DNA of 63,956 nt, counting the filler, from Reticulomyxa filosa (lineage: Eukaryota > Protista > Foraminifera): NCBI GenBank assembly GCA_000512085.1. It is 23 parts of 23 records of this genome, joined end to end, with 100 filler letters (N's around TTAATTAATTAA, not from the genome) between each part and the next. Parts side by side here need not be neighbours in the genome. Positions count along the whole stretch, not along the records: positions 52,140 to 56,760 come from ASPP01022343.1; 22 more parts are not named here. The stretch is one strand, 5' to 3'. Of this stretch, positions 811 through 56,940 are shown piece by piece. Position 1 is the first letter of the stretch; each line of letters starts with the position of its first letter. A program made the translations under genes and the position numbers. Under the pieces are notes generated by a model, which did no database searches, was not told where the DNA came from, and worked only from the letters and a program-made list of their open reading frames with translations.

Positions 811-3800
811 ATGGCTTTTTTTACCTTAAATAATTTAGTCGTTTCGAGCTTACTTTTCTTCAGTAGTTTGGCAAACACAGTTACAAATTGTGAGATACAG
901 GATACACAATGGGAAGTCGAATATATTGGAAAAGAAGCAGTGAATGAAATTGTGACATGTTTTCAATATAATATCATTATTAATGGTATTTTTATATTTT
1001 TGAGAAGACTTTTATCGTTTAAAAAAAAGTAGGAAATAAACTGTAATTATTTAAGAGAATATGAAAAACTTTATACTGTAAAAAAAATCGATATGAAAAA
1101 AAATTATATAGTGGATCCAAAAAAAAGATGTGGTAGTGATTTGAAAAGTTATATAATCGAAGCACCGGACAAATGTCAAGAAAGAAAACACCAAATAAAC
1201 TGGAAACAGCATTTAAACTCCTTATCAAGTGGGACAAAATACCACGTCACTGACGATGTCGCCAATGTCATATCAGGCTATGAGATAGTATCAAATTTTC
1301 AGTTGCATGGCTCTCAAGCTCAAAAAATTTGTTTGAACAACGTCACTGACGTGGCTCAAGGCTGCGTCAGATTGAAAAGTGAGCAACATGCCACAAGCAA
1401 ATGCAATTTCCCCATTCCCGATGTGTGTACCTTTACAACTAAGTTAAAGTGATACATTTCAACATGTTCAAAAAAAAAAGGGACATCTTTAGGGAAAAAT
1501 TCGTAGTTTAACTCCAAGTATTATTCATTTTAAAAAACAACAAACATAAAACTGACTGTAAAAAACAGACCAATTTTACCAAAAGCTGAGATTTTTACAG
1601 ACGAGCATAATGAATTGTTTCGAAGACGAAGATTTGTTCAAGCGAGTGCACGGAAACCAAGTGTACCTCCGACAAACACTCCAACAAATGTTCCAACAAA
1701 TAAACCGGTTTATGCAACTACCGATAAACCAAGTCAAATAAATACAAAAAAAACGACTTTAAATCCAACGAAATCACCAGTAAAATGCCCCACTGCAGTA
1801 TCTACTGAAAAACCGACGCAATCAACCACTCGGCAACCAACTACATATCCAACGAATAAACCAACAACCCAAAAACCGACTACCCAGGCACCCTCCAAAA
1901 AATTGACTCAAAAACCAACACAATCACCAACCAACCGACCAACTAATCAACCAACCAATCGGCCAACCAATCAACCAACCAACCGACCAACTAATCGGCC
2001 AACCAATCGGCCAACTAATCAACCCACTCAAAAACCAACAAACAAGCCAACTAATCGCCCAACAAGTAAACCAACGCGACATCCATCCAAATCACCGACT
2101 AACCAACCAACCAATCGACCCACTCAAAAGCCGACAAATGAGCCCACTGACCGTCCGACAAATAAACCTACGACTAATCAACCGACCAACAGACTCACTC
2201 AAAAACCTACGTATATCCAAACTGACTCACCGACCAACATGCCAACGAACAAACCGAGTCACTCCAATCCCAAATACCCGAGTCAAGAGCCGACTGATAG
2301 TCCTACCTATAAATTCACTCGAAGCACCACAAACAAACCCACCAAGTCACCTCCCACGCAAATACCGACAAAAACTCCAACCAACCTTCCTACATATAAG
2401 CCAACTCGACTTCAAACTAACAAGCCTACTGAAGCCTCTTCAACTGCGATTCCAACATATAAGCCCAGCCATTCCGAGATGAAAAATCCAACACATGCTC
2501 CAACAAATGTTTTTACCACAAACAAGCCGACATATATTCAAAGTCCATCGAAACATGCTTCAACTGGATCGCCAACCCAAAATGGACATCCATCTCGAGA
2601 TTACACCGAGAAACCGTCTGGGCATTCCATGGAAGATTATCCATATAGTTCAGCAGAAAGCTCAGAACATGGCCGAGGAGAAGGTACAGAAGGAGATTCC
2701 AAGCAAAGTTCGGAAAGCACAGAAGAAAATCTAACAGAGGACTCAACAGAAAGCTCGGAGGACAATATGGAAGGTGACTCCAAAGAAAGTTCAGAGGGAA
2801 GCGCAAGCGACGGCTCACAAACGAGCTCAGAATACAACCCAACAGAAAATGGCTCCGAGGAAAGTGCAGAAGAGAGTCACTCAACAACTATGGAGCCAAC
2901 TTCATTCCAAACAAAAAAGCCGAGTTGGATAGACAAAGAGGCAGAGCTACCTGCTCATCATGGTACTAACAAACCGACGAACAGAAATCCGAGTCAAATT
3001 CCTACAAGCATTCCAGTTTCGCATCCAAGCTACGAGAAAACAGAGAAGCCAAGCCAACAAAAACAACCGACTCCAGGTTATCCTGGAGTCAAACCCAGTC
3101 ATTGGAAACCAGATACACCTACACGTGTCCCAATCCAAACGACAGAAAAACAGTCCACGGAAAGTCCGTCCTGTGATCTCAACAGCAAAACGACAAAAAG
3201 TCCAACTCCAATTTTTACAAAAAATCCAACTCAAAAGCCGTCTTACAAGCCAACGATCTCTCCTACCGACAATCCAACCAACATGCCGACACAAAAACCA
3301 ACTAAACAACCCACTACAAAACCGACCAACAAACCGACTCCATCTCCTACTAACACTCCAACTAAGAAGCCTACGAAATTTCCAACAAAACAACCGACTG
3401 AAAATCCCACGCAAAATCCGACCAAGATACCGACTCTATTTCCAACATGGAATCCCACCAATCAACCAACGGAAATGCCAACGGAAATGCCAACGGACAT
3501 GCCAACGGACATCCAACGCAATCCAACGCAAATACCAACGGATTATCCGACTCAAATGCCAACGGATCATCCAACTCGAATGCCAACAGATCATCCAACT
3601 CGAATGCCAACTGATGATCCAACACGAATACCATCCAAGTCACCAACACAAAATCCAACCGAACATCCCACGTTCAATCCAACAAATGAACCGACTCCAT
3701 TCCCCACAGATAATCCCACTCGATTACCCACTGACTCACCGACAAACGGTCCAACGAAGCAACCGACACAAAGCCCCACCAAAAATCCTACGAATACGCC

Positions 3801-6102
3801 AACAATCATGCCGACAAGCATTCCAACACAAGCTCCAAGTTTTGAGCCTACAAAGGCACCAACTGATAATCCAACTCCGACTCCAACTCAAATGCCGTCG
3901 AAATCACCGACGGAAAATCCAACGAGAAATCCGACAGAGCAACCGAGCATTTTCCCAACAAACATGCCAAGTCACAATCCGACTGTAACACCAACAATGA
4001 GTCCCAGTAAAACTCCAACAAGTAACCCAACGAATAATCCGACAAATATTCCTACAAAGAATCCAACAAATAGTCCAACTAATAATCCAACGAGAAATCC
4101 AACTAATAACCCAACTAATAATCCGACAAACAATCCTACAAGTAATCCGACAAATAGTCCAACAAATAACCCAACAAACAATCCAACAAATAGTCCAACG
4201 AATAATCCAACGAACAATCCTACAAACAGTCCAACAAATAACCCAACGAATAGCCCTACAAACAATCCAACAAATAATCCAACAAATAGTCCAACGAACA
4301 ACCCTACAAATAACCCAACAAACAATCCAACAAATAACCCTACAAATAATCCAACAAACAGTCCAACGTCAAACCCTACCAAAGAACCGACCAATTCCCC
4401 TTCGAATGAGCCCACTCCAAATCCAACAAGTAATCCCACTCTATCTCCAAGTGAGACTCCAACAAGCAATCCGACCAAAATACCGACATTATTTCCGACG
4501 TGGAATCCCACGAAAAATCCTACAGATACACCGACAGCCACTCCAACCGACGTTCCAACTCAAATGCCGACGTTGACGCCCACCAATTTACCTTCGAAAC
4601 AACCCACGATAAGTCCAAGCGACAATCCTACGAATTTTCCAACCGCAAACCCAACGAACATGCCGACTCCAAATCCGACTCAGCTTCCCACCAAAGTGCC
4701 AACCTTTAATCCAACCGCTTCACCTTCTAACGAGCCCACTCCAAATCCAACTGAAAACCCCACTCAAACGCCGACAAAGTTTCCAACTGACATACCGACA
4801 CAAAATCCCACTCTTTCGCCTTCCAACTCTCCAACTTCGTTTCCTACAAAGAATCCAACAGTATCGCCCACTAACAATCCGACCAAAAGACCGACTTTGT
4901 TTCCAACTTGGAGTCCCTCCAAAAATCCAACCGAAACACCTACTGACGTTCCTACCCAAACTCCAACATTGACACCAACAAACTTGCCTTCCAGACAGCC
5001 AACAACGAGTCCAAGCAACAATCCAACAAAGCTACCGACCGAGTTTCCAACTCAACAGCCGACTGATTCTCCGACAGATAGCCCAACGAATATGCCATCA
5101 AAGTCACCCACTCCAAATCCAACAGAAAATCCTACACAAATACCGACGCAATCTCCGACATATAACCCCACTGATATGCCCACCAAAAATCCCACTCCAA
5201 ATCCGACCAACGAACCGACTCTACCCCCCTCTGAGGCTCCGACACAGCTACCCACTGAACTTCCGACGCAACAACCAACCGAAACACCAACAAAAAATCC
5301 AACCAAGAATCCAACTCTATTTCCAACATGGAGTCCCACCAAAAATCCTACGGATACACCAACAGTAATGCCAACGGAAAATCCAACAAAGTCGCCGAGC
5401 TTTCAACCTACGCAAATGCCAACGGACAATCCGACTTCAACTCCAACCCAAACTCCGTCAAAATCACCAACTCAAAGTCCAACCGAAACTCCGACTCACT
5501 TTCCAACGAAAAACCCAACAAACACGCCCACTGAGAACCCAACGCAACTTCCCACCAAGTTTCCAACTGCTTTTCCAACAAACAATCCAACGAAGAGACC
5601 GACTCTATTTCCAACTCGGAGTCCCACCGAAAATCCAACCGAAATGCCATCCAAATCGCCAACGCAAAATCCAACGAATATGCCTACAGAAACCCCACTA
5701 TAGAGCCAACTTTATCTCCTACTGATAGTCCAACCCATATACCTACGGAATTTCCAACAAAACAGCCGACTGAAAATCCCACTAAAAATCCAACCAAAAC
5801 ACCAACGTGGAGTCCCACTAAAAATCCCACCAATCAACCAACGGAAATGCCAACGGATCATCCGACTCAAATGCCAACAGATAATCCAACACGAATGCCA
5901 ACAGATCATCCAACTCAAATACCGACTGATCATCCAACCCGAATGCCAACTAATCATCCGACTCGAATGCCGTCAAAATCACCAAGTGAGAATCCAACTC
6001 GTAATCCTACGCGTTTACCAACACGTCATCCAAGTAAAAACCCGTCAAGATCTCCAACTAAAAACCCGTCAAGATCTCCAACTAAAAACCCGACGAGAAT
6101 AC
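811..6102 (+). CDS. Secreted Pro/Thr (xPTxx) repeat mucin-like protein with an N-terminal Cys-containing domain; 3' partial
   Basis: Phase-consistent exons 811-985, 1112-1442 and 1569 onward, with GT-AG introns. Signal-peptide-like start MAFFTLNNLVVSSLLFFSSLA. More than 1300 aa of PTxx repeats. The stop at 5701-5703 follows a 1-nt loss near 5690, and the repeats continue in another frame to the contig end. Confidence 0.85.
4010..4380 (+). repeat. 12-bp coding tandem repeat (NPTN/SPTN)
   Basis: About 30 near-perfect AAY-CCN-ACN-AAY units inside the PT-repeat gene. Confidence 0.9.
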
Positions 6103-6202
6103 NNNNNNNNNNNNNNNNNNNNNNNNNNNNNNNNNNNNNNNNNNNNTTAATTAATTAANNNNNNNNNNNNNNNNNNNNNNNNNNNNNNNNNNNNNNNNNN
6201 NN
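6103..6202. other. Artificial contig linker (44 N + TTAATTAATTAA + 44 N), first of 22
   Basis: Identical 100-bp linkers start at 6103, 10750, 14273, 16026, 22371, 23906, 25909, 27518, 28618, 30093, 31718, 33027, 37183, 40078, 41225, 42831, 44814, 49371, 50896, 52040, 56761 and 58296. The core gives stops in all six frames. Confidence 0.99.
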
Positions 6203-12792: not shown

Positions 12793-14272
12793 ATGACACA
12801 ATCTCAAACAGATCATTTTCTTTCATTGTTCCAACAAAATCTAGCAGAGATGAAAGGGAATATGGAGTCATCACATTGGAAAACGGTTTGGAATGTGTAC
12901 TGATTTCAGACCCAAAAACTGACAAGGCAGCGGCAGGTAAGGTACAGTTTGAGGAGGAAAGGGGGGGAGGGGGGGGGGAGAAAACTCAAACTGTTTGAGG
13001 AGGATCAATGACAAATAAAAATGGACAGCATTGAGTGTACTTGTTGGGCATTACGCAGATCCGGAAGAAATTCCAGGGCTGGCACACTTCTTGGAACATG
13101 TGCGTAAACGTAACACATCAATAAACACGTTAGCTACTATGAAGTGACACGTAGTTTGTAATTAAAAAAAAAAAAAAAACTAATAATAATAAAAAAAAAA
13201 AATGAAAAGATGCTGTTTTTAGGAACAGAAAAGTATCCAATTGAGGGTGAGTACAGCCGTTTTTTAAAAAGCCATGGTGGTAGCTGTAACGCGTCAACAG
13301 GGATGCAAGAGACGCGTTATCAATTTGACGTACACAAAGACCATTTAGTGGGTGCATTAGACCGATTTGCACAATTTTTCATTTCACCACTTTTTACAGA
13401 ATCGGCAACGTCACGTGAAATGAATGCCATCCACAACGAATATGCAAACAATTTGCATAGCGACTCACATAGAATGTACCAAATGACCAAGTACTTAGCC
13501 CGCTCCGATCACCCTTTTCACAAATTTGGTACTGGCAATATCCACACATTACGCGATAATCTCGCCAAAGATATCGATCTTCGCAAAGAGTTGCTTAACT
13601 TTTACAAAGAGTATTACTCAGGTAATAAATAAATACGTATACACATAACTATTTTATTTATAGAATATGTATGTATATATATATATATATATATGTATAT
13701 GTATTTGTAGCGTCGATAATGAAACTAGCAATTCTTGGACAAGAAAAATTGGAAGAGTTGGCACAATATGCAAAAGAAAAGTTTTCGGAAATTAAAAACA
13801 CTGACCGAACAGCCCCCACGTATAGCAATGACGTGTTTGATTTTAGTGCCTTTCCTGCTTTGTACAAAATTGTGCCGATCAAAGAAAAGCGTGACTTGTT
13901 GATAAGCTGGCCGATGGAATCCTGTCAGTCTTATTTCATGGAAAGACCACACGCTTTGCTTTCCTTTTGCTTGGGTCATGAAGGGCCAGGGTAAGTTACA
14001 TACGTACGTAATGCATATATATATGTAAAAATGGAAAAAAGCAATTCCAAACTCTGAAAATCATTTGCCTCCGTTTCATAGGTCCATTTTAGCATTGCTG
14101 AAAAAGTTGGGATATGCCACACATCTGTCAGCTGGTTTGGAGCATAACACTCCTCAATTTGCAATGGTGTGTATTGGAACAAAGTCAAATGCTTTGTTTG
14201 TTATATCTTGTTATTTTGTTAAAATATAATGCTTTGTGAGGTTTGTTTATGTATGCATATATATATATATAT
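12793..14272 (+). CDS. IDE: Insulysin / insulin-degrading enzyme (peptidase M16A), 3' partial
   Basis: LENGLECVLISDPKTDKAAA, inverted zinc motif GLAHFLEHMLFLGTEKYP, ALDRFAQFFISPLF, HPFHKFGTGN and LGHEGPG. Exons 12793-12936, 13029-13099, 13210-13621 and further exons. Indel near 12820. Confidence 0.93.
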
Positions 14273-18418: not shown

Positions 18419-19858
18419 ATGACCCACGAAGGTTATTCTTGGTTATTTTGTTTTACTTTGTATTTCATTACAATTACATTGGGATTGCACACTAATAAAC
18501 TTGTCTTTGCTGAACTTGGGTAGAACAGAAGAAGCAAGCTTCTTAGTGTTGATATTGGATTGTAATCCATTGTTTTGGATAAAGCAACAACAGCAAAAAG
18601 AATCACAATTCTCAATAGATCAATATTTGAACAGTATTTGCATGTTTGTGAATGCATTCCTGACATTGCATCGTGGAAACAAATTAGCAATATTTGGAAT
18701 AACGCCAAGGCTATCCAAATTATTATACATATCGCCAGTGGCAGACATCACAGAAAGTGAAAACGCAGACGGCATGATTCAAGCTTCGGAATTCGAATTT
18801 GCGGAAATGAACGAATCTATTCGAAAACAAGTATCCAAATTGATAGAGCATTGTTACAAAGGCGACTCTCCCGCAAGTGGGATTACGTCAAAAAAAAAAA
18901 AAAGCAAAACAACACACACGCGCACATTCGCATACTCCCTTCCTTTCTCTCTCTCTGATGAATACGAACATATAAATATATGTATACGTAACCTCTCATC
19001 ATAATATACATATAGGTGGAGGTTCATTGTTGGCTGGTGCATTGTCTCATGGACTGTGTGGTTAGTACCTTTTTTATTTGTTTATGTGTCTCGTCTGTAC
19101 ATAACTCGAAAGAAAGAAAACCTTCGATCGAACAACAAAAAAAAACGTGTGAATAATACAAAAAGTGTTGAATCGAGTTACAATAAGGGATTTGACCCAA
19201 ATAATTCCTCGAATATTAGTAATGAATGTATCTCATGATATTTCATCCCAATACATCCCGATCATGAATTGCATCTTTTCTGCACAAAAAAGAGTTTTGT
19301 ATGTTTGAATGAAAATAAATAAATAAATTAATATTTGCTTTCATTGTTGGCTGCTATCTTTTGAAATAAAGATGTTTTATATTAACATTATACACATGCA
19401 TATGAATGTGCAAAAAAAAAAAGAATGTTGTAATAGACGCTTGCGTCTTATGTAAAGAGGAATCAACCTTTTTGGAACAAGCCACGTTGCTTTGTGACGG
19501 GATATACTCTCGACCTTTGATATTTGGTGGATTGTTGCAACATTTATTGATGACATACTTATCACCACCGTCGGTTCGTAAACACTTGGCTCTACCTTTG
19601 CAGAAAAAAATTGATTTGCGAGCATCTTGCTTTTGTCATCACACCATCTTGGACATGGGCTTTGTTTGTCCTGTTTGTCTCAGCAGTTCACAGTCTCCAA
19701 CATTATTTTATCTTATTTTTTTGTCTTGCTCCACATATAGTGTCACATGTGCAAATAACAACATATTTCAAAAAACAATAGTTTTTTGCGCATCCAGGCC
19801 CAGTTGCCGTACTTGTGGAACCCGATTTCCTCGACAACATACATTTACAAAAGAATAG
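18419..19858 (+). CDS. GTF2H3: TFIIH p34 subunit (Tfb4/GTF2H3)
   Basis: SFLVLILDCNPLFW, FVNAFLTLHRGNKLAI, IDAC...FLEQA...GIY and the C-terminal Zn finger DLRASCFCH...GFVCPVCLS..FC...C..CGT. Multi-exon. Confidence 0.92.
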
Positions 19859-26688: not shown

Positions 26689-27517
26689 ATGAGCGAAGAG
26701 TCAATTCGAGTGTTAGGACGATTTCGTCCAATAAGTAGTTCCGAAAGACGTCATGCAGAAGAAGAGGTAAGGTTTTTTAGTGCTTGTCTCTGTCTACTTT
26801 TCTTTTTTTTTTTTCCCTTCATATTTCATGTTATGAAATGTCCCGTTAGTAGGAGGAGAAAAAAAAAAAGTGAGTACATTTTGAATATGTACCCCCCAAC
26901 GAATATGAGAAAAAGTGTAATAAAAAAATAAAAATAGAGGTTGACAGACATGCCTCCAGTATATCTGGACTCGCAAAGTGTGAGACTGGCACGAGACAAT
27001 GAAAACTCACAGAAGCCATACAAATGTACATTGGACCGAATATTTTCATCGGAGTCGACCCAAGCAGAAGCGTTTGTACAAATTGGCAAACCAATGGTGG
27101 ACGCAGCTTTGGAAGGGTACAATGCAACGATTTTTTGCTATGGCCAAAGTGGGGCAGGCAAATCATTTACAGTTTCGACAATAAGCTACAAATAGTCTCA
27201 ATCAATTATATATACATATATACATATATGTATATATATATATATATGCATACACACACACCAAAAAAGATGTTCGGACCGGAAACATCGGACAAAGAAA
27301 GAGCAGTTGACAAAGAACTGAATGGAATCGTGCCTCGATGTATCGAGTACTTGCTGCAGTGTTTGACGGAGCGAACGAATATGATGTCGAGGGCATTTAG
27401 TGCGACGGATGATGACGATGATCAAGATGATGATGATGATGATGATGAACAGGAGGATGACAAGGCCCCATCCATTATCAAAGAATGGAAAGTCTACGTG
27501 GAGTTTATCCAAATTTA
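26689..27517 (+). CDS. Kinesin motor protein, N-terminal part
   Basis: IRVLGRFRP, LDRIF, GYNATIFCYGQSGAGKSFT|MFG, GIVPR and VEFIQI. Two introns and an Asp-rich loop. Confidence 0.92.
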
Positions 27518-28617: not shown

Positions 28618-28717
28618 NNNNNNNNNNNNNNNNNNNNNNNNNNNNNNNNNNNNNNNNNNNNTTAATTAATTAANNNNNNNNNNNNNNNNNNNNNNNNNNN
28701 NNNNNNNNNNNNNNNNN

Positions 28718-29487
28718 TGACAACCCCAAGCTCAAGCTGGTGACCGCGGTCGAGCTCGGCTACCAGGGCCTCACCATCAACCTGTCCAACGGACCGAAGG
28801 CCGATACGCCGCTGGCCAAGGATGCCCGTGTCCGCCAGGCCTTCGAACTGTCGATCGACCGCGAGGCACTGAACCAGGTCGTCTTCAACGGCGAGTTCGT
28901 CGTCGGCAACCAGTGGATCAACCCGAGCAACCCGTACTATCAGCAGGCTTTCCCGGTGCCTAAGCGCGACGTCGTCAAGGCGAAGGCGCTGCTGAAGGAA
29001 GCGGGCGTCAGCGGCCGCATGTCGCTCGACCTCATGGTGCCGAACAACCCCGAGACCCGGCAGGTCGCCGAGGTGCTCCAGTCGATGGTCGCGGAGACCG
29101 GCTTCGACCTCAAGATCCGCGTCACCGAGTTCGCGACCTCGCTGAAGCAATCCGAGAGCGGCGACTATCAGCTCTATCTCATCGGCTGGTCGGGCCGCAG
29201 CGACCCCGACGGCAATTCCTACATTTTTCCATGTCTGCGGCCAGCCGCAGAACAATTCCGGCTATTGCGACAAGGAAGTCGACGCCTGGCACAACGAGGC
29301 GCGCATCAAGAGCGACCCTGCGGAGCGCAAGAAGATCTACGAGAAGATCACCGCCAAGTACCTGCCCGAAGGCTCGATCAAGTATCTCTACCATCGTCGC
29401 GTCCTGGTCGCGCTTTCCGACCGGGTCGATGGCTACAAGCAGATGCCCGACGGGCTGATCCGCGTCGTCGGCGTCAAACTGAAGTAA
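28718..29487 (+). CDS. Bacterial peptide ABC transporter substrate-binding protein (family 5, DppA/OppA-like), 5' partial
   Basis: High GC, no introns. DARVRQAFELSIDREAL and GWSGRSDPD. Indel near 29228; the true C-terminus is PDGLIRVVGVKLK*. Confidence 0.9.
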
Positions 29488-29491
29488 AACC

Positions 29492-30092
29492 TTGCTGACC
29501 TTCCTCTCCCAGCGACTGCTGCAGATCATCCCGACGCTGATCCTGGTGTCGATGCTGATCTTCGGCCTGCAGCAGCTCCTGCCGGGCGACCCGGCGCTGA
29601 TCATGGCGGGAGAGGAGCGCGACCCGAAGGTGCTCGAGGAGATCCGCGAGCAGTACCGGCTGAACGAGCCGATCCCCGTCCAGTACTTCTACTGGATAAA
29701 GGGCGTTCTCTCCGGGAACCTGGGCGAGTCGATGCGGCTCAAGAGTTCGGTGTCGTCGCTGGTCGCCGAGAAGCTGCCGGTGACTCTCCAGCTCGCCGCC
29801 ATGGCGCTGATCGTGGCGTTCGGTATCGGCATCCCGGCCGGCATCATCTCGGCGGTGAAGAAGGACACCGCCTGGGACTACGGCGCCAATATCTTCGCCC
29901 TGTGGGGGCTCAGCACGCCCAATTTCTGGCTGGGCATCCTGATGATCTTCCTGTTCTCGGTGACGCTCGGCTGGCTGCCGGCCTCGGGCTACGTCCGGCT
30001 GGGCGAGGACTGGCGCGCCAGCCTCGCCACCACGGTGATGCCGGCCTTGTGCTGGGCAATGCCATCGCCGCCGTGCTGATGCGCCACACGCG
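29492..30092 (+). CDS. dppB: Bacterial peptide ABC transporter permease (DppB/OppB-like), 3' partial
   Basis: TTG start 4 nt after the binding-protein stop. LLPGDPA, QYFYWIKGVLSGNLGES, KLPVTLQL and PNFWLG. Confidence 0.88.
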
Positions 30093-52139: not shown

Positions 52140-54620
52140 GGCCGGGGCCCTATACATAACAATAATATTATAATATTATTATAATATATATAAACAAAAA
52201 CAAAAACAAAATAACAAAACTTTTTTTTTTTGTTTGATGGGCTGGAGCCCGTTAGAGACGGGTCGGAGCCCGTTGGAGCACGAGTAGGTTGCTGGGGCCC
52301 TATGAACGATAATAAAATTAGTATTATAATTAATACATAAAACAAACAATCAAAACTTTTTATTTTTTTGTTGAGACGGGTGGGAACCCGTGGTCGAGAG
52401 CGGGTGGTGTTTCGGAGGCAGGGGCCCTAAAAAGCAATAACAAATCCGTTATAACATTTTAAAAAAAAAAAAAATCAAAACTTTTTTTTTATTTGGTTGA
52501 CACGGGTTGGAAACCCGTTGACGCGCTGGAACGGGGGTTCGAGGCACCGGGGCCCTATAAATAATAATTTTATTATTAATATGAGATTAAAAAACAAAAA
52601 CAAAACAACAAAACTTTTTTTTTTTTGTTTGATGGGTTCTAAACCCGTTTTGCTCGCTTGTTGCGGGCCACAGGGCCAGTGTCACAGGTGCACTATAAAT
52701 AATAATCAAAATATATTTGTAATCAAAAACAAAACAAACAAAGCTTTTTATTTATTTACATTAGTTGTGCCTTGGTCGCGTGCTGGATTGCGGTCTCGGA
52801 GCATTGAATCTATTTGGAAAATAGTTTATCTTATTGTTGATATGAATTTTAAAAAATAGATCAAAACTTTTTTTTATTTTGTTGGATGCTGGTTGGAGAC
52901 TGTTGGAAGCGCAAATAATTGACTGTGCGCCGTTGCACTGTAAACAGTGATCATATCATAATATGATTATATTAATAATAAATGAATAAGATATGTAATC
53001 ATACCTTTTTTTGTTGGATGGGTTTTGAACCCGTAATTTGATGTTATCGGGAGGGGGTCTTTGAGGCAGCTCCCTGTGAGTACAATAGTGAGTTTTAATT
53101 ACTAGAAAGATAACATAAAATAGATCAATACTTTCTTTTTGTTGTTGGTAACGGGTTGGAGACCCGTTTGAGCGCGCAGGAGGTGGCCGTTGCATTGGAG
53201 CTATATAAACAATTATATGCGTAATAATCAGCAATAAATAAAACAAATAAACAAAACTTATTATTGTCAATGCGGGTTTTGACCCGTGGTCGCGCAGGAT
53301 TTGGTCGGATTTACTGCGGCCCTATAAATAATAATTATATTATTTTTATTATATTAAAAAACAAATGCACAACAAAACTTTTTTTGTTTGAAGGGTTTTA
53401 AACCCGTAGTTGGTGGTCTCGGATGTGGCCCTATATACACATAATAATCTTTAATAATAATATAAATAATAAAAGATAAATCAAAACTTTTTTATATTTT
53501 TGTCGGAAGCGGGTTGGAGATCAGTTGGGGCACGCAGTATGTAGTTGGGGCATTTGACACCTATAAATAATTATATTGTAATAATAATAATAATTAATTA
53601 ATAAAACAAATAAGCAAAACTTTTTTTTTTTTTATTGATGCGGGCTGGTAGCACGTGATTGGTCGCGCGGTATTTGGCTCGGAGCGCCACGGACCTATAA
53701 ATAATAATATCATTATTATTATAATATAAAAGAACACAAAACAAAATAACAAAACTTTTTTTTTTGTTTGATGGGCTGGAGCCCGTTAGAGATGGGTCGG
53801 AGCCCGTTGGAACATGCTGTTGATTGAGGGGGCCCTATAGACAATAATAATTTTTAATTATAGTAAATAAATTAAAGAAACAAGCAAAACTTTTTTTTAA
53901 TTTTATTGAGACGGGTTGGGAACCCACTGTGGATAGCGCAGGTCGGGTTTCGGTGTGGTGGCTCTATAACACAATAACAGGACCGTTATAATAATTTTAA
54001 AGATATATGCATATATCAATACTTTTTTTTTATTTATTTGACACGGGTTTTAAACCCTTGATGCGCTGGAGCGTGTTCGATGCGCTGGGGCCTATTAATT
54101 GTTATTATTATTATTATTATTATATAAAATAATAAAAATAAAACAGCAAAACTTTATTTTTTTTCTTTGTGAGCGGGTTACAACCCGTTGGACGCTGGCA
54201 ATTGCCACTTGGCCATGCGATTGTCACTGTTCTCCTATAAGTTGCGACAATAGTATGTTTATAAAGAAAAGCAAAACAAAACAAAATTAACTTTTTTTTT
54301 TGCACTGGTCGATGGACTCGTGCTCTGTAAAAATATTATTTTGGTGTTGCTGTCAGCAAAAAATAAATAAATAAATCTAAACTTTTTGTTGACGGGTTTT
54401 AAGCCCGGAGTTGCGGCTTGGAGCCGCTTGGCATTGGTGTTATTATAAATAATAACCCCGATACCAAATTTATAAAAACATCCCGAATGTTTTTTCGGGC
54501 TTTGTGCCCGTTCTTTGTGCCTGGATGTCATTTTGCACCTATGAAAAAAAAATTTTAAAGTATTGTTACACACATATACACACATAAATACTAAACTTTT
54601 TTTTTTGGGCAATCATTGTA
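52140..54620 (-). repeat. Tandem array of ~20 micro-exon/intron-like units (~125-130 bp period)
   Basis: Minus-strand unit: YAG | GC-rich 35-80 nt ending ACGGG-N6/7-CCCRY..CAAC-A-run | GTTTTG or GTATTG | AT-rich 55-75 nt. Confidence 0.88.
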
Positions 54621-55031
54621 AGCCCTTTGTTTGGGGATGGTGTTGCTTTCGCAACAACAGAATGTAGTGATTGTACTACATTACACCATCCCATATTTTG
54701 TTGGAGGGTCGGCTTGACGTTGACGTCAGTGCCGATTGTTTGTGGATTGTGTGTGGTGTGTGGTGTGTGTATGGGGAGTTGGGGGTATTGTGTGTGTGTG
54801 GTATGGTAGTTGTTGAGTTGGACGTTGAGCATGGTGTGATGGGGTGGGATGGAGTCTGACAAGGGATGGAGTTGGATGATGTGGTGTTGAGTGCTGCGGC
54901 ATTGATTGTGATGATGGATGATGATGCAACATGGGCGTCAAGCCCTTAAATTGATGTTGGTGCGATATGCACCTGCTTTCAGGAGCAATGATGTGGTGAT
55001 AGCGTTCAAATAGTTTTAGCACGGGGTACAC
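54600..55031 (-). other. His/Pro/Thr-rich putative leading exon of the array
   Basis: Overlapping ORFs 54726-55031 and 54566-54862. Ends in GCCC-A-run|GTTTAG, like the array units. Confidence 0.4.
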
Positions 55032-56940
55032 GACAAATAAACGTGTATGGGTTGGACGTGTTTACAGTGTGATGCTAATTGACTGTGAAGTGTGGCAACA
55101 CAACGACAAGGTTGGATTGCATCATCGATTTACAGAAATGGCAAATTAGCTGTTAATTTTGTGTGTCTGCTACTTGTAAAGGTTCGAAAACAAACGGAAG
55201 CTCGGCTACAAACATTGTCAAAAACTTTTGGTTGTTTGTGAGATTGCTTTTTGAAAATAGCTTGAACAATTAATTGGTAATTATTAATAGATTATTTGCG
55301 CAGAATTTTCGCACTTGTGTTTTACTCATCAAAAAAAATTCGCATTGAGAAATGCACTAATAAAAAAAAGTTAATTCATTAAAAAAATAGTCCACACACA
55401 CGTTGCACCGTGCCTTTGAACCAAAACGCAACAACAAATTGTGTGAACGGCACAAAGCAGTGGACACGTCCTTAGTGGTTCTCAACCTCGCTTGCGTCAA
55501 GATCACTAAAAGGCAGGCCACCGCCTCTCAAAAAATTCATGCGGCTGGGCAAGTATAAGCTCCAAGCAATTTTTTTGTTCCGAGAACAAATGCCTATGAT
55601 GGAAGGCCTCAACCGCACATTTTTGTGGGTCACCAGTTTCATCGAAAAGGCCAACGAAATAAGACCTGGCCAATGTTTATTCCGAAAGGGTAGGTCCATC
55701 TGGTTTGCAATCTAGATTTCACAAACAAACTCTTTTTTTTTTTTTTTTTTTTGAAAGGGGACATGATGGGGGACGGAAAAAAAGAGAACCGAGATACCCA
55801 AAAAAAAATTCTCAAAAACCACTTCTACGTAATTGCACACATTGTCTGTTTGTTTTTAATTATCGTCGTCTTACCTATATATTCTGGCACGTGATAATAT
55901 TTTATTTATTCTTAGGGCGTGGTAAGAACAAGCAAGGACGTGACGATGAAAATTATCTTTTTCAAATATTTTCATTAGCAACCCCTTGACGTAGAATTCG
56001 CAGCTTCTAAAACTGCACTCCAAATCTCCATTAATGCTAAGTGCGCCAGTACTTTCTTTGGCCAATGTTAAGTTCTGGTCTTTGGATCAGAGACTCTTCG
56101 ACAGACCGAGATTTTATCCGTTGCTTCCTCTTTTGCTGACGACAGCGTTTCCAAGGCCCTCGTGATTCTTGTGCTAATGTATTAGTTTTGCTTTGATGTG
56201 GCCATAATCGCACTTTTGTCTTGATTGTCATCTTGTCTATTGAATTATGGGGTAATTAGTTTTTTTCAAAAAGACTTGGTACAGCTTTACTTCCCCAAAA
56301 GAAAAGAACAAACACCATTGTTAAAAAAATAATGTTATTTATGAATTAGTAAGAGTTGTGAAGTATTTGAAAGATGATCGAACACTTTTATAACTTTCAT
56401 TCAATTATAAAAATCACATATAAAATTGCAAATTTACATACTTGCTTTTCCTTGTTTCACTACGACAATATTTCTTATATAATTGTCAGCTATTACAAAA
56501 TACTTAAAATTCAAGGAGATACAGTCAAAATATTGCCTATGTAATAATCAAAACAAAACTGGACAAGGGTCCAAAAGAGAGTGAGCGAAAGATGAGACAA
56601 AGGAAAAATAAGTTTTTTTGGAATTATAATAACATAAGGCTATTTTCAAAGATGCCAAGCTCATATAGAGACATAATATGCTACTTCTGTCTATTTTGGA
56701 TGGCCGCATCCGTTCTTGGGTATGTTGCAATTACCAGTTTCTTAAAGGAGTGGAACTCAGNNNNNNNNNNNNNNNNNNNNNNNNNNNNNNNNNNNNNNNN
56801 NNNNTTAATTAATTAANNNNNNNNNNNNNNNNNNNNNNNNNNNNNNNNNNNNNNNNNNNNTATTTTAAATATCAAAATTTTGAAATATCAATTAAAAAAA
56901 TTAATAATAAAGAAAATTAGCAAAAAAAAAAATTTTAATA

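What the first reader, a model, noticed from the sequence alone, without database searches (positions are those of the whole stretch)
52140..54620. Array of ~20 hairpin-bearing micro-exon-like cassettes with conserved splice signals but no shared reading frame
Seen on the minus strand: nearly every unit has a TAG/CAG acceptor, a variable GC-rich 5' part, a constant 3' part ACGGG-N6/7-CCCRY..CAAC plus an A-run, a GTTTTG/GTATTG donor and an AT-rich spacer. The constant part is palindromic (plus strand ACGGGTTGGAAACCCGT 52502-52518, ACGGGTTGGAGACCCGT 53151-53167, GGGCTGGAGCCC 52239-52250), and the inner pair switches T-A to C-G in some units. Loop and exon lengths shift frame, and several units contain stops. 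Hypotheses: (a) a spliced structured ncRNA or small-RNA precursor array with a constant handle and variable segment; (b) an alternatively spliced cassette library encoding Pro-rich PxRP..GLxP(V/I)..KK peptides with basic ends; (c) a decayed or error-ridden exon-repeat gene in which the hairpin is a by-product of Gly-x-x-Pro codons. No cas gene, reverse transcriptase or transposase is visible on the contig.
Basis: partly seen in the sequence, partly recalled or inferred. Interest (0 to 1): 0.75.

Follow-up and report, generated by a model that had tools for sequence, protein, structure and literature searches.

The report
Duplicated exons read in rotating frames
In a likely foraminiferan genome, about twenty copies of one short exon-plus-intron unit lie in tandem, and joining them at their splice signals while leaving out two broken exons gives one stop-free frame in which look-alike exons are read in all three reading frames, so this is likely a gene for a basic, predicted unfolded protein whose composition rather than sequence would be under selection.

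Summary
The array is real: 19 AT-rich introns (52-71 nt, all GY...YAG) separate 18 whole C/A-rich exons ending in an A-run; 14 of 19 repeat units carry GGG-N6/7-CCC. Spliced as assembled, leaving out only the two exons that are closed in every frame, 16 of 18 exons form one stop-free frame with no A-run correction (P 3e-4 to 7e-4 under four nulls; 0 of 26 stop triplets in frame). The shared motif is read in frames 0/1/2 in 6/7/4 units, and duplicated blocks keep junction phase despite many 1-2 nt indels. The hairpin shows no convincing covariation, and exon composition matches a Pro/Thr-rich gene in the window. Best reading: a protein gene (480+ aa, pI 11, predicted disordered, a lysine cluster per exon) that evolves by compensated frameshifts, the exon-end A-run giving Lys in any frame. 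Against: no codon periodicity, no homologue, two closed exons, and with nothing skipped the test is not significant (P 0.15). No RNA data were available. The scan had not noted this on other DNA.

The parts
54597..54937 (-). Upstream exon: 113 open codons in phase with the chain at donor 54596; first in-frame ATG at 54832; ends in a GGGC-N11-GCCC hairpin variant and an A-run. Its 5' part may be read in another frame (ATG 54931, stop near 54728).
   Evidence: true start not established
54383..54538 (-). Composite exon (156 nt, enters at phase 1): two units joined by a 40-nt former intron (54479-54440) that has no AG and is stop-free in the chain frame
54292..54324 (-). Short exon, 33 nt, phase 1, no hairpin
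54153..54234 (-). Exon, 82 nt, phase 1
54023..54091 (-). Closed exon 1: 69 nt, phase-neutral, stops in all three frames; one TAA in the chain frame inside the hairpin loop; an internal GT at 54055 would give an open 36-nt exon
53891..53963 (-). Exon, 73 nt, phase 0
53756..53834 (-). Exon, 79 nt, phase 2, two hairpin motifs (21-nt internal duplication)
53621..53694 (-). Exon, 74 nt, phase 1, hairpin 5' arm broken
53488..53560 (-). Exon, 73 nt, phase 2, hairpin 5' arm broken
53379..53430 (-). Exon, 52 nt, phase 1
53258..53321 (-). Exon, 64 nt, phase 0
53132..53200 (-). Exon, 69 nt, phase 2
53005..53073 (-). Exon, 69 nt, phase 2
52868..52937 (-). Exon, 70 nt, phase 2, hairpin broken
52745..52809 (-). 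Closed exon 2: 65 nt, stops in all frames, no hairpin, followed by the only GC donor; must be skipped or trimmed (an internal GC at 52770 would give an open 39-nt exon) for the frame to go on, or else ends the protein
52615..52692 (-). Exon, 78 nt, phase 1; copy of 54234 in the second block
52482..52554 (-). Exon, 73 nt, phase 1; open copy of closed exon 54091
52357..52426 (-). Exon, 70 nt, phase 0; copy of 53963
52221..52299 (-). Exon, 79 nt, phase 2; 90% DNA-identical copy of 53834, mostly read in another frame
52140..52149 (-). First 10 nt of a further exon, cut by the end of the assembly piece
52150..54596 (-). Span holding the 19 introns (52-71 nt, GY...YAG; each coordinate pair is)

Best explanation
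The array is likely one protein-coding gene built by tandem duplication of a roughly 130-bp intron-plus-exon unit, whose exons, joined at their GT-AG sites with the two closed exons left out, form one stop-free frame although look-alike exons are read in all three frames, and it would encode a strongly basic protein predicted to be unfolded. Shown by the sequence: the splice signals, the duplications, the open chain, the rotation of frames, and the 1-2 nt indels between duplicates with junction phase kept. Inferred: (1) the short AT-rich introns are removed constitutively and the two closed exons are skipped or trimmed; (2) selection keeps the frame open but not the amino-acid sequence, which is cheap here because C/A-rich, T-poor DNA gives about the same Pro/Thr/Ser/Gln/Asn/Arg mix in every frame and the exon-end A-run gives Lys in every frame; (3) slippage in that A-run is one ready way to cancel an indel in the same exon, so a frameshift recodes part of one exon only; (4) the product, a chain of lysine clusters spaced about 25 residues apart by proline-rich linkers, binds polyanions such as nucleic acid or tubulin tails by charge pattern, as a histone H1 tail or a basic microtubule-associated protein does (analogy recalled, untested). 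The hairpin is most simply a relic of the ancestral unit.
For: Open chain with zero junction corrections: 0 of 300 dinucleotide shuffles did as well; 145 of 200,000 exon-order permutations, 63 of 200,000 random A-run lengths; with free skipping allowed to the null, 21 and 36 of 50,000 kept 16 of 18 exons. 0 of 26 stop triplets in the kept exons are in frame, 13 and 13 fall in the other two frames, 0 of 10 tail TAAs are in frame. Acceptors were fixed, before the frame test, and are the first YAG at least 35 nt after each donor; 7 of 9 nearby alternative AGs close the chain. The upstream 113-codon frame meets the chain in phase. The opposite strand is closed in 11 of 18 exons, as in its null. 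Motif read in frames 0/1/2 in 6/7/4 of 17 units; 53834 and 52299 are 90% identical in DNA but share codon position in 26 of 78 aligned columns and 9 of 25 residues. Three duplicate pairs differ by 29 substitutions and 11 indels of 1-2 nt, yet the blocks keep phase. Exon bases A36 C31 G17 T15 match the Pro/Thr-repeat gene of the window, A39 C33 G12 T15. K+R 18-22%, P 11-12%, S+T 15-17%, D+E 3% in all three frames; product 480 aa to the end of the piece, pI 11.2, 98 K+R against 12 D+E, no hydrophobic segment.
Against: Two of 18 exons have no open frame; with all exons included 5 of 18 are closed, which 15% of nulls match (7,606 of 50,000), so the result rests on leaving out 52809; the first 13 exons alone give P 0.003 and the last four alone P 0.10. 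No codon periodicity (GC 0.57/0.58/0.56) and no clear codon-usage advantage of the chain frame (differences within 2 standard errors). The 5' part of the upstream exon shows periodicity for another frame. No homologue, family or gene model was found, though these searches are weak for such sequence. Only one of the duplicate pairs (53834/52299) shows a plain one-indel-plus-A-run compensation; the others have several indels and alignments depend on gap scores. An older duplicate pair does not keep phase at its end (53560/53200). The binding function is an analogy only.
Confidence: 0.5

Rival explanations
1. Same origin and same frame-rotating history, but this copy has recently died or is a null allele: the TAA in exon 54091 ends the frame after about 180 residues and exon 52809 decayed earlier.
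For: Exon 54091 has intact GT-AG sites and a phase-neutral length, as expected if it was in the frame until lately; its duplicate 52554 is open with TCC where it has TAA. Skipping is less usual where introns are this short (general knowledge).
Against: Only one in-frame stop in the first 13 exons and none in the last four; an internal GT gives an in-frame escape; all 19 splice pairs are intact.
Confidence: 0.2
2. The RNA is the working part (an array of small hairpins for an RNA-binding protein or for exon recognition) and the frame is kept open only to shield a many-exon transcript from nonsense-mediated decay.
For: The motif is kept at a fixed place in units read in three frames, which protein-level selection cannot explain today; inner pair Watson-Crick in 15 of 17 against 10.8 expected (P 0.014, chosen after the fact, relatedness ignored); hairpin variants with other loop lengths at 54933 and at the end of the upstream exon; no codon periodicity.
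Against: Whole-hairpin pairing 77.8% against 76.7% shuffled, 191 of 500 shuffles as high; covariation score reached by 99 of 500 (the 12 seven-base-loop segments); 79 of 102 against 76.2, P 0.15; outer pairs broken in 7 and 8 of 19 segments; 5 of 19 units lack the motif; mean folding z about -0.9 on both strands and no consensus fold; C far exceeds G and A far exceeds T, unlike paired RNA.
Confidence: 0.12
3. A polyprotein precursor or cassette library: each exon gives a short proline-rich basic peptide released at the Lys-Lys end, and frameshifts are a source of peptide diversity.
For: 19 runs of two or more basic residues, about one per exon end; high indel rate between duplicates.
Against: No hydrophobic segment, hence no signal peptide, in the 480 residues from ATG 54832 (highest 19-residue hydropathy 0.49), though the true 5' end is unknown; 11 of 18 exons are not multiples of three, so free skipping is not tolerated; no acidic spacers or conserved mature motif.
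Confidence: 0.1
4. A spliced non-coding or non-functional tandem repeat in which the open frame is chance.
For: T-poor exons are open in about two of three frames anyway (32 open frames against 33.3 shuffled); I made analysis choices (skip rule, retained 40-nt segment); no codon signal, no homologue.
Against: Chain P of 3e-4 to 7e-4 even when the null may skip any exon; phase kept across duplicated blocks.
Confidence: 0.08

Closest known systems
[quoted passage not shown]
   Same: Indels of 1-2 nt that cancel each other and recode the stretch between them while the frame stays open.
   Different: There: 624 candidate and 6 high-confidence genes among 21,208 vertebrate and 15,283 insect genes, spans of 7-99 nt, found between species. 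Here: many such events among paralogous exons of one gene, with a lysine-coding A-run at each exon end; no transcript or protein support.
Frameshifts in protein tandem repeats (Osmanli et al. 2025, PMC12871928; abstract, outline and 12 passages read)
   Same: Tandem repeats as frameshift hotspots; shifted repeats gain positive and lose negative charge in eukaryotes, as this product shows (K+R 20%, D+E 3%).
   Different: That study compares annotated repeats with their computed shifted frames; in the passages seen it does not describe a gene whose duplicated exons are read in all three frames; the word 'intron' does not occur in its main text.
One-repeat-per-exon structural genes (titin PEVK, elastin, fibrillar collagen; recalled, not from a call)
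   Same: Tandem duplication of an exon-intron unit; low-complexity, proline- and lysine-rich, disordered product.
   Different: Their exons are symmetrical and repeat a peptide; here 11 of 18 exons are asymmetrical and the DNA repeat does not give a peptide repeat.
Dscam mutually exclusive exon clusters and schistosome micro-exon genes (recalled)
   Same: Arrays of short duplicated exons with intact splice sites.
   Different: They need equal phase or lengths in multiples of three; entry phases here are 0, 1 and 2 and the open frame needs consecutive joining.
Spliced long non-coding RNAs with repeated exonic modules (FIRRE type; recalled)
   Same: A repeated motif carried exon by exon.
   Different: An open frame runs through the junctions here and the hairpin lacks covariation.

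Membership tests
Spliceosomal multi-exon protein gene | GT/GC donors and YAG acceptors around AT-rich introns | tested here: met
   19 of 19 and 19 of 19; host genes of the window use similar donors and TAG acceptors
Spliceosomal multi-exon protein gene | One stop-free frame across junctions | tested here: inconclusive
   Met for 16 of 18 exons (P 3e-4 to 7e-4); not met with all exons included (P 0.15)
Spliceosomal multi-exon protein gene | Codon periodicity, codon bias or excess of synonymous change in the frame | tested here: not met
   GC 0.57/0.58/0.56; codon-usage score within 2 SE of the other frames
Spliceosomal multi-exon protein gene | Spliced transcript and protein detected | not testable with these tools
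   No run was listed
Compensatory-frameshift evolution (pCFM) | Indels not divisible by three whose sum restores the frame | tested here: met
   11 indels of 1-2 nt in three duplicate pairs; nets 0, -3, and +4 offset by 4 nt in the neighbouring exon; alignments depend on gap scores
Compensatory-frameshift evolution (pCFM) | Seen in several species or backed by mRNA or protein | not testable with these tools
   No relative found
One-repeat-per-exon genes (titin PEVK, collagen type) | Symmetrical exons that repeat one peptide | tested here: not met
   7 of 18 exons are multiples of three; motif read in frames 0/1/2 in 6/7/4 units
Mutually exclusive or cassette exon arrays (Dscam, MEG) | Equal entry and exit phase, or lengths in multiples of three | tested here: not met
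   Entry phase of the motif frame 0, 1 and 2; lengths
Structured non-coding RNA array | Base pairs kept by covariation | tested here: not met
   191 and 99 of 500 shuffles as high; P 0.15; only the inner pair shows a weak signal (P 0.014)
Structured non-coding RNA array | Match to a known RNA family | tested here: not met
   No match at gathering score; best is Histone3 at 20.2 bits against a cut-off of 34
tRNA array or tRNA-derived element | Cloverleaf with acceptor stem, D and T arms | tested here: not met
   ARAGORN at relaxed threshold finds no intronless tRNA in the array; its mitochondrial mode across the piece, which is noise; no tRNA family in Rfam scans
H/ACA guide RNA | Long hairpin with a pocket 14-16 nt before an ACA box (definition recalled) | tested here: not met
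   ACA or ATA lies only 2-5 nt after a 5-6 bp stem
CRISPR-like repeat-spacer array | Constant repeats with unrelated spacers and nearby cas genes | tested here: not met
   Variable parts are homologous to each other; eukaryotic piece of 4.6 kb with no long ORF besides this one
Secreted multi-peptide precursor | Signal peptide and dibasic cleavage sites | tested here: inconclusive
   19 basic runs present; no hydrophobic segment from ATG 54832, but the 5' end is uncertain

The most novel reading that the evidence does not exclude
A living gene that has escaped sequence-level selection altogether: its duplicated exons rotate freely among the three reading frames, each closed by a slippery A-run that both writes a lysine cluster in any frame and re-tunes the frame after every indel, so that only the open frame and the charge pattern of the protein are inherited.
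Probability: 0.3. Interest if true: 0.75.

Novelty: new variant of a known kind. Interest (0 to 1): 0.52.

Why it matters
Compensated frameshifts are held to be rare (6 high-confidence genes in a survey of about 36,000 vertebrate and insect genes, PMC8935012). One gene that holds many of them among its own duplicated exons would be a natural experiment on whether a disordered protein can be selected for composition and charge spacing alone, and it offers a direct test: recode exons into their other open frame and ask whether function stays. It also warns that such genes are invisible to codon-based gene finders and homology searches, and are easily filed as non-coding RNA or pseudogene. If the open frame proves to be chance or dead, this is an ordinary tandem exon repeat.

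Tried and rejected
No whole genome is held for this window, so other copies in the genome could not be sought. No sequencing run was listed; this is no evidence on expression, and no reads could be laid. Rfam scans found nothing at family thresholds. The tRNA idea (5-bp stem with 7-nt TT-NNN-AA loop, TTCGA on the plus strand) was dropped: no cloverleaf, and the loop pattern follows from the palindrome. A second, upstream stem (4-6 bp, loop 9-22) was not significant (155 against 144.8, P about 0.1; 15 of 19 units tested, four short or degenerate ones left out). RNAalifold gave no consensus on either strand. The inverse reading (GC blocks as introns, A-run AG as acceptor) was dropped: most GC blocks lack a GT start and 4 of 19 AT blocks have no open frame. 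An ancestral Gly-x-x-Pro frame is inconclusive: it has the highest synonymous share over the whole core (0.22 against 0.17 and 0.10) but not over the 3' part alone (0.14 against 0.22 and 0.11). Protein searches: motif-frame alignment, no hit at E 10; profile against 1.84 billion representatives, 4 hits, all unrelated repeat proteins on inspection; upstream exon and first array exon, no hit at E 1 among longer proteins; Pfam 0 of 10 array peptides; Atlas no usable hit. DNA patterns: 0 matches in viral contigs and metagenome contigs. A unit profile found no copy elsewhere in the window (best outside E 0.68). Earlier notes of the scan: nothing alike by sequence, place or words. Ten paper searches showed no description of this locus or of exons rotating through three frames; the library lacks most subscription papers, including the genome paper (Glockner et al. 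2014), which I saw only as a reference and whose annotation and supplements may bear on this. No structure was predicted because the product is predicted to be disordered and exists only as a spliced join.

Full report
Setting. The window is a string of assembly pieces joined by 22 spacers of N44-12 bases-N44. The array lies on the piece 52140-56760 and runs off its end at 52140. The window holds AT-rich eukaryotic genes (insulinase, Kelch-repeat and caspase-domain families by Pfam). Earlier notes of the scan on the same genome name the foraminifer Reticulomyxa filosa (AI notes, not verified by me beyond consistency). Published tables give that assembly as 50,809 pieces, N50 3.6 kb, 35% GC, mean intron 87 bp, 2 introns per gene (passages of PMC10245619 and PMC13746701).

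The observation. On the minus strand 19 AT-rich segments of 52-71 nt start with GT (18) or GC (1) directly after an A-run and end in TAG (16) or CAG (3). Between them lie 18 whole exons and the first 10 nt of another. The first exon (156 nt) is two units fused through a 40-nt former intron without AG, which makes 19 units. GGG-N6/7-CCC occurs in 14 of 19 units, against 0.7 in shuffles. The 5' parts align with each other, and four units recur about 1535 bp downstream at 75-90% identity, with introns at 71-90%. So this is a tandem duplication of an intron-exon unit with a later block duplication, not a repeat-spacer array.

The RNA reading. Rfam gave nothing at family thresholds. Single units fold only slightly better than shuffles, mean z -0.84 on the minus and -0.95 on the plus strand, and the alignment has no consensus structure. 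In the 12 seven-base-loop segments 77.8% of cells pair against 76.7% shuffled, and 99 of 500 shuffles reach the covariation score. A second stem upstream was not significant. The exons are rich in C and A, not in G (A36 C31 G17 T15), like the Pro/Thr-repeat gene at 1534-5703 (A39 C33 G12 T15).

The frame test. Exon by exon there is no excess of open frames (32 against 33.3), and a frame anchored on the CCC codon enters at all three phases and holds stops. The chain gives a different answer. With acceptors fixed beforehand (in every case the first YAG at least 35 nt after the donor) and with only the two exons that are closed in all frames left out (54091-54023 and 52809-52745), one frame runs through the other 16 exons without a stop and without changing any A-run (0 of 300 shuffles). 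It is matched by 145 of 200,000 order permutations and 63 of 200,000 random A-run lengths; when the null may skip any exons, 36 and 21 of 50,000 keep 16 of 18. None of 26 stop triplets is in frame, 13 and 13 are in the other two frames, and none of 10 TAAs in the A-rich tails is in frame. The one long open frame upstream (113 codons) meets the chain in phase, the retained 40-nt segment is open in it, 7 of 9 nearby alternative AGs close it, and the opposite strand behaves as its null. The limits: with every exon included 5 of 18 are closed (P 0.15); the first 13 exons alone, with the single unavoidable stop, give P 0.003, and the last four alone P 0.10. The second closed exon carries the only GC donor and has lost the hairpin, as a long-skipped exon would. 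The first is phase-neutral with one in-frame TAA in the loop. In-frame internal donors exist in both, but their use is conjecture.

Rotation of frames. In the chain the shared motif is read as G-x-x-P in 6 units, one base on in 7 and two bases on in 4. Exons 53834 and 52299 are 90% identical in DNA, enter and leave at the same phase, yet share codon position in only 26 of 78 columns because a 1-nt loss near the 5' end is offset by one more A in the tail. Three duplicate pairs differ by 29 substitutions and 11 indels, all of 1-2 nt, with nets of 0, -3 and +4, the last offset by the neighbouring exon. An older pair does not keep its exit phase. The chain frame has no codon periodicity and no clear codon bias. 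That is evidence against an ordinary gene, and it is also what frequent frame changes would leave. Whether the unit once coded a G-x-x-P peptide is unresolved.

Product and mechanism. From the in-frame ATG at 54832 the product has 480 residues up to the end of the piece, pI 11.2, 98 Lys+Arg against 12 Asp+Glu, 19 runs of two or more basic residues, no hydrophobic segment, and it lies on the unfolded side of the charge-hydropathy boundary; its make-up is nearly the same in all three frames. The start is uncertain, since the 5' part of the upstream exon shows periodicity for another frame. I infer that selection keeps splicing and an open frame, that A-run slippage can repair the frame locally, and that the protein acts by charge pattern on polyanions. 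The last step is an analogy from memory (histone H1 tails, basic microtubule-associated proteins), with no test here. No homologue was found by five protein searches, Pfam or the Atlas, and no DNA relative by four pattern scans; these are weak negatives.

Comparison. It works like compensatory frameshift evolution (PMC8935012: abstract, outline, section 5; 6 high-confidence genes among 36,491 analysed) acting on a tandem repeat (PMC12871928: abstract, outline, 12 passages; shifted repeats gain basic and lose acidic residues). PMC7084103 was seen only in a search listing. It fails the defining tests of symmetrical exon-repeat genes, cassette clusters, tRNA, H/ACA and CRISPR-like arrays. Ten searches of the paper library found no account of this locus or of this architecture; the genome paper itself was not available.

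Verdict. Observation partly confirmed; interpretation partly supported. Odds: living frame-rotating protein gene 0.5, recently dead copy of one 0.2, RNA-level function with a shielding frame 0.12, peptide precursor 0.1, chance 0.08. New variant of a known kind; interest 0.52, held down by one locus, one assembly and no expression data.

Noticed in passing
window 28674-30092: A piece with about 63% GC that encodes a bacterial peptide ABC transporter binding protein and permease (PF00496, PF19300), likely bacterial DNA in the assembly.
   Followed up: partly
window 13208-13209, 19422-19423, 27268-27269 (+): Three introns of conserved host genes appear to end in an A-run plus AG instead of a pyrimidine tract (exon borders read from recalled protein motifs). 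Every exon end of the array therefore also looks like such an acceptor.
   Followed up: partly
window 1534-6102 (+): A 1389-codon Pro/Thr/Asn repeat (mucin-like) frame whose repeats go on in another frame after about 5700 (ORF 5535-6158), a real frameshift or an assembly slip.
   Followed up: no
window 54479-54440 (-): A 40-nt former intron without AG, stop-free in the chain frame, folds into a long hairpin with the next unit: a possible case of an intron turned into exon.
   Followed up: partly
window 54928-54971 and 55076-55087 (-): Upstream stretches resemble decayed units: an AG-GTGC start with a GGGC-N5-GCCC hairpin, and a 12-nt exact match to exon 52937; the unit profile did not score them.
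   Followed up: partly
window 54729-54931 (-): A 67-codon His/Pro/Thr-rich frame from an ATG overlaps the upstream exon in another frame and has the better codon periodicity; no Pfam match.
   Followed up: partly
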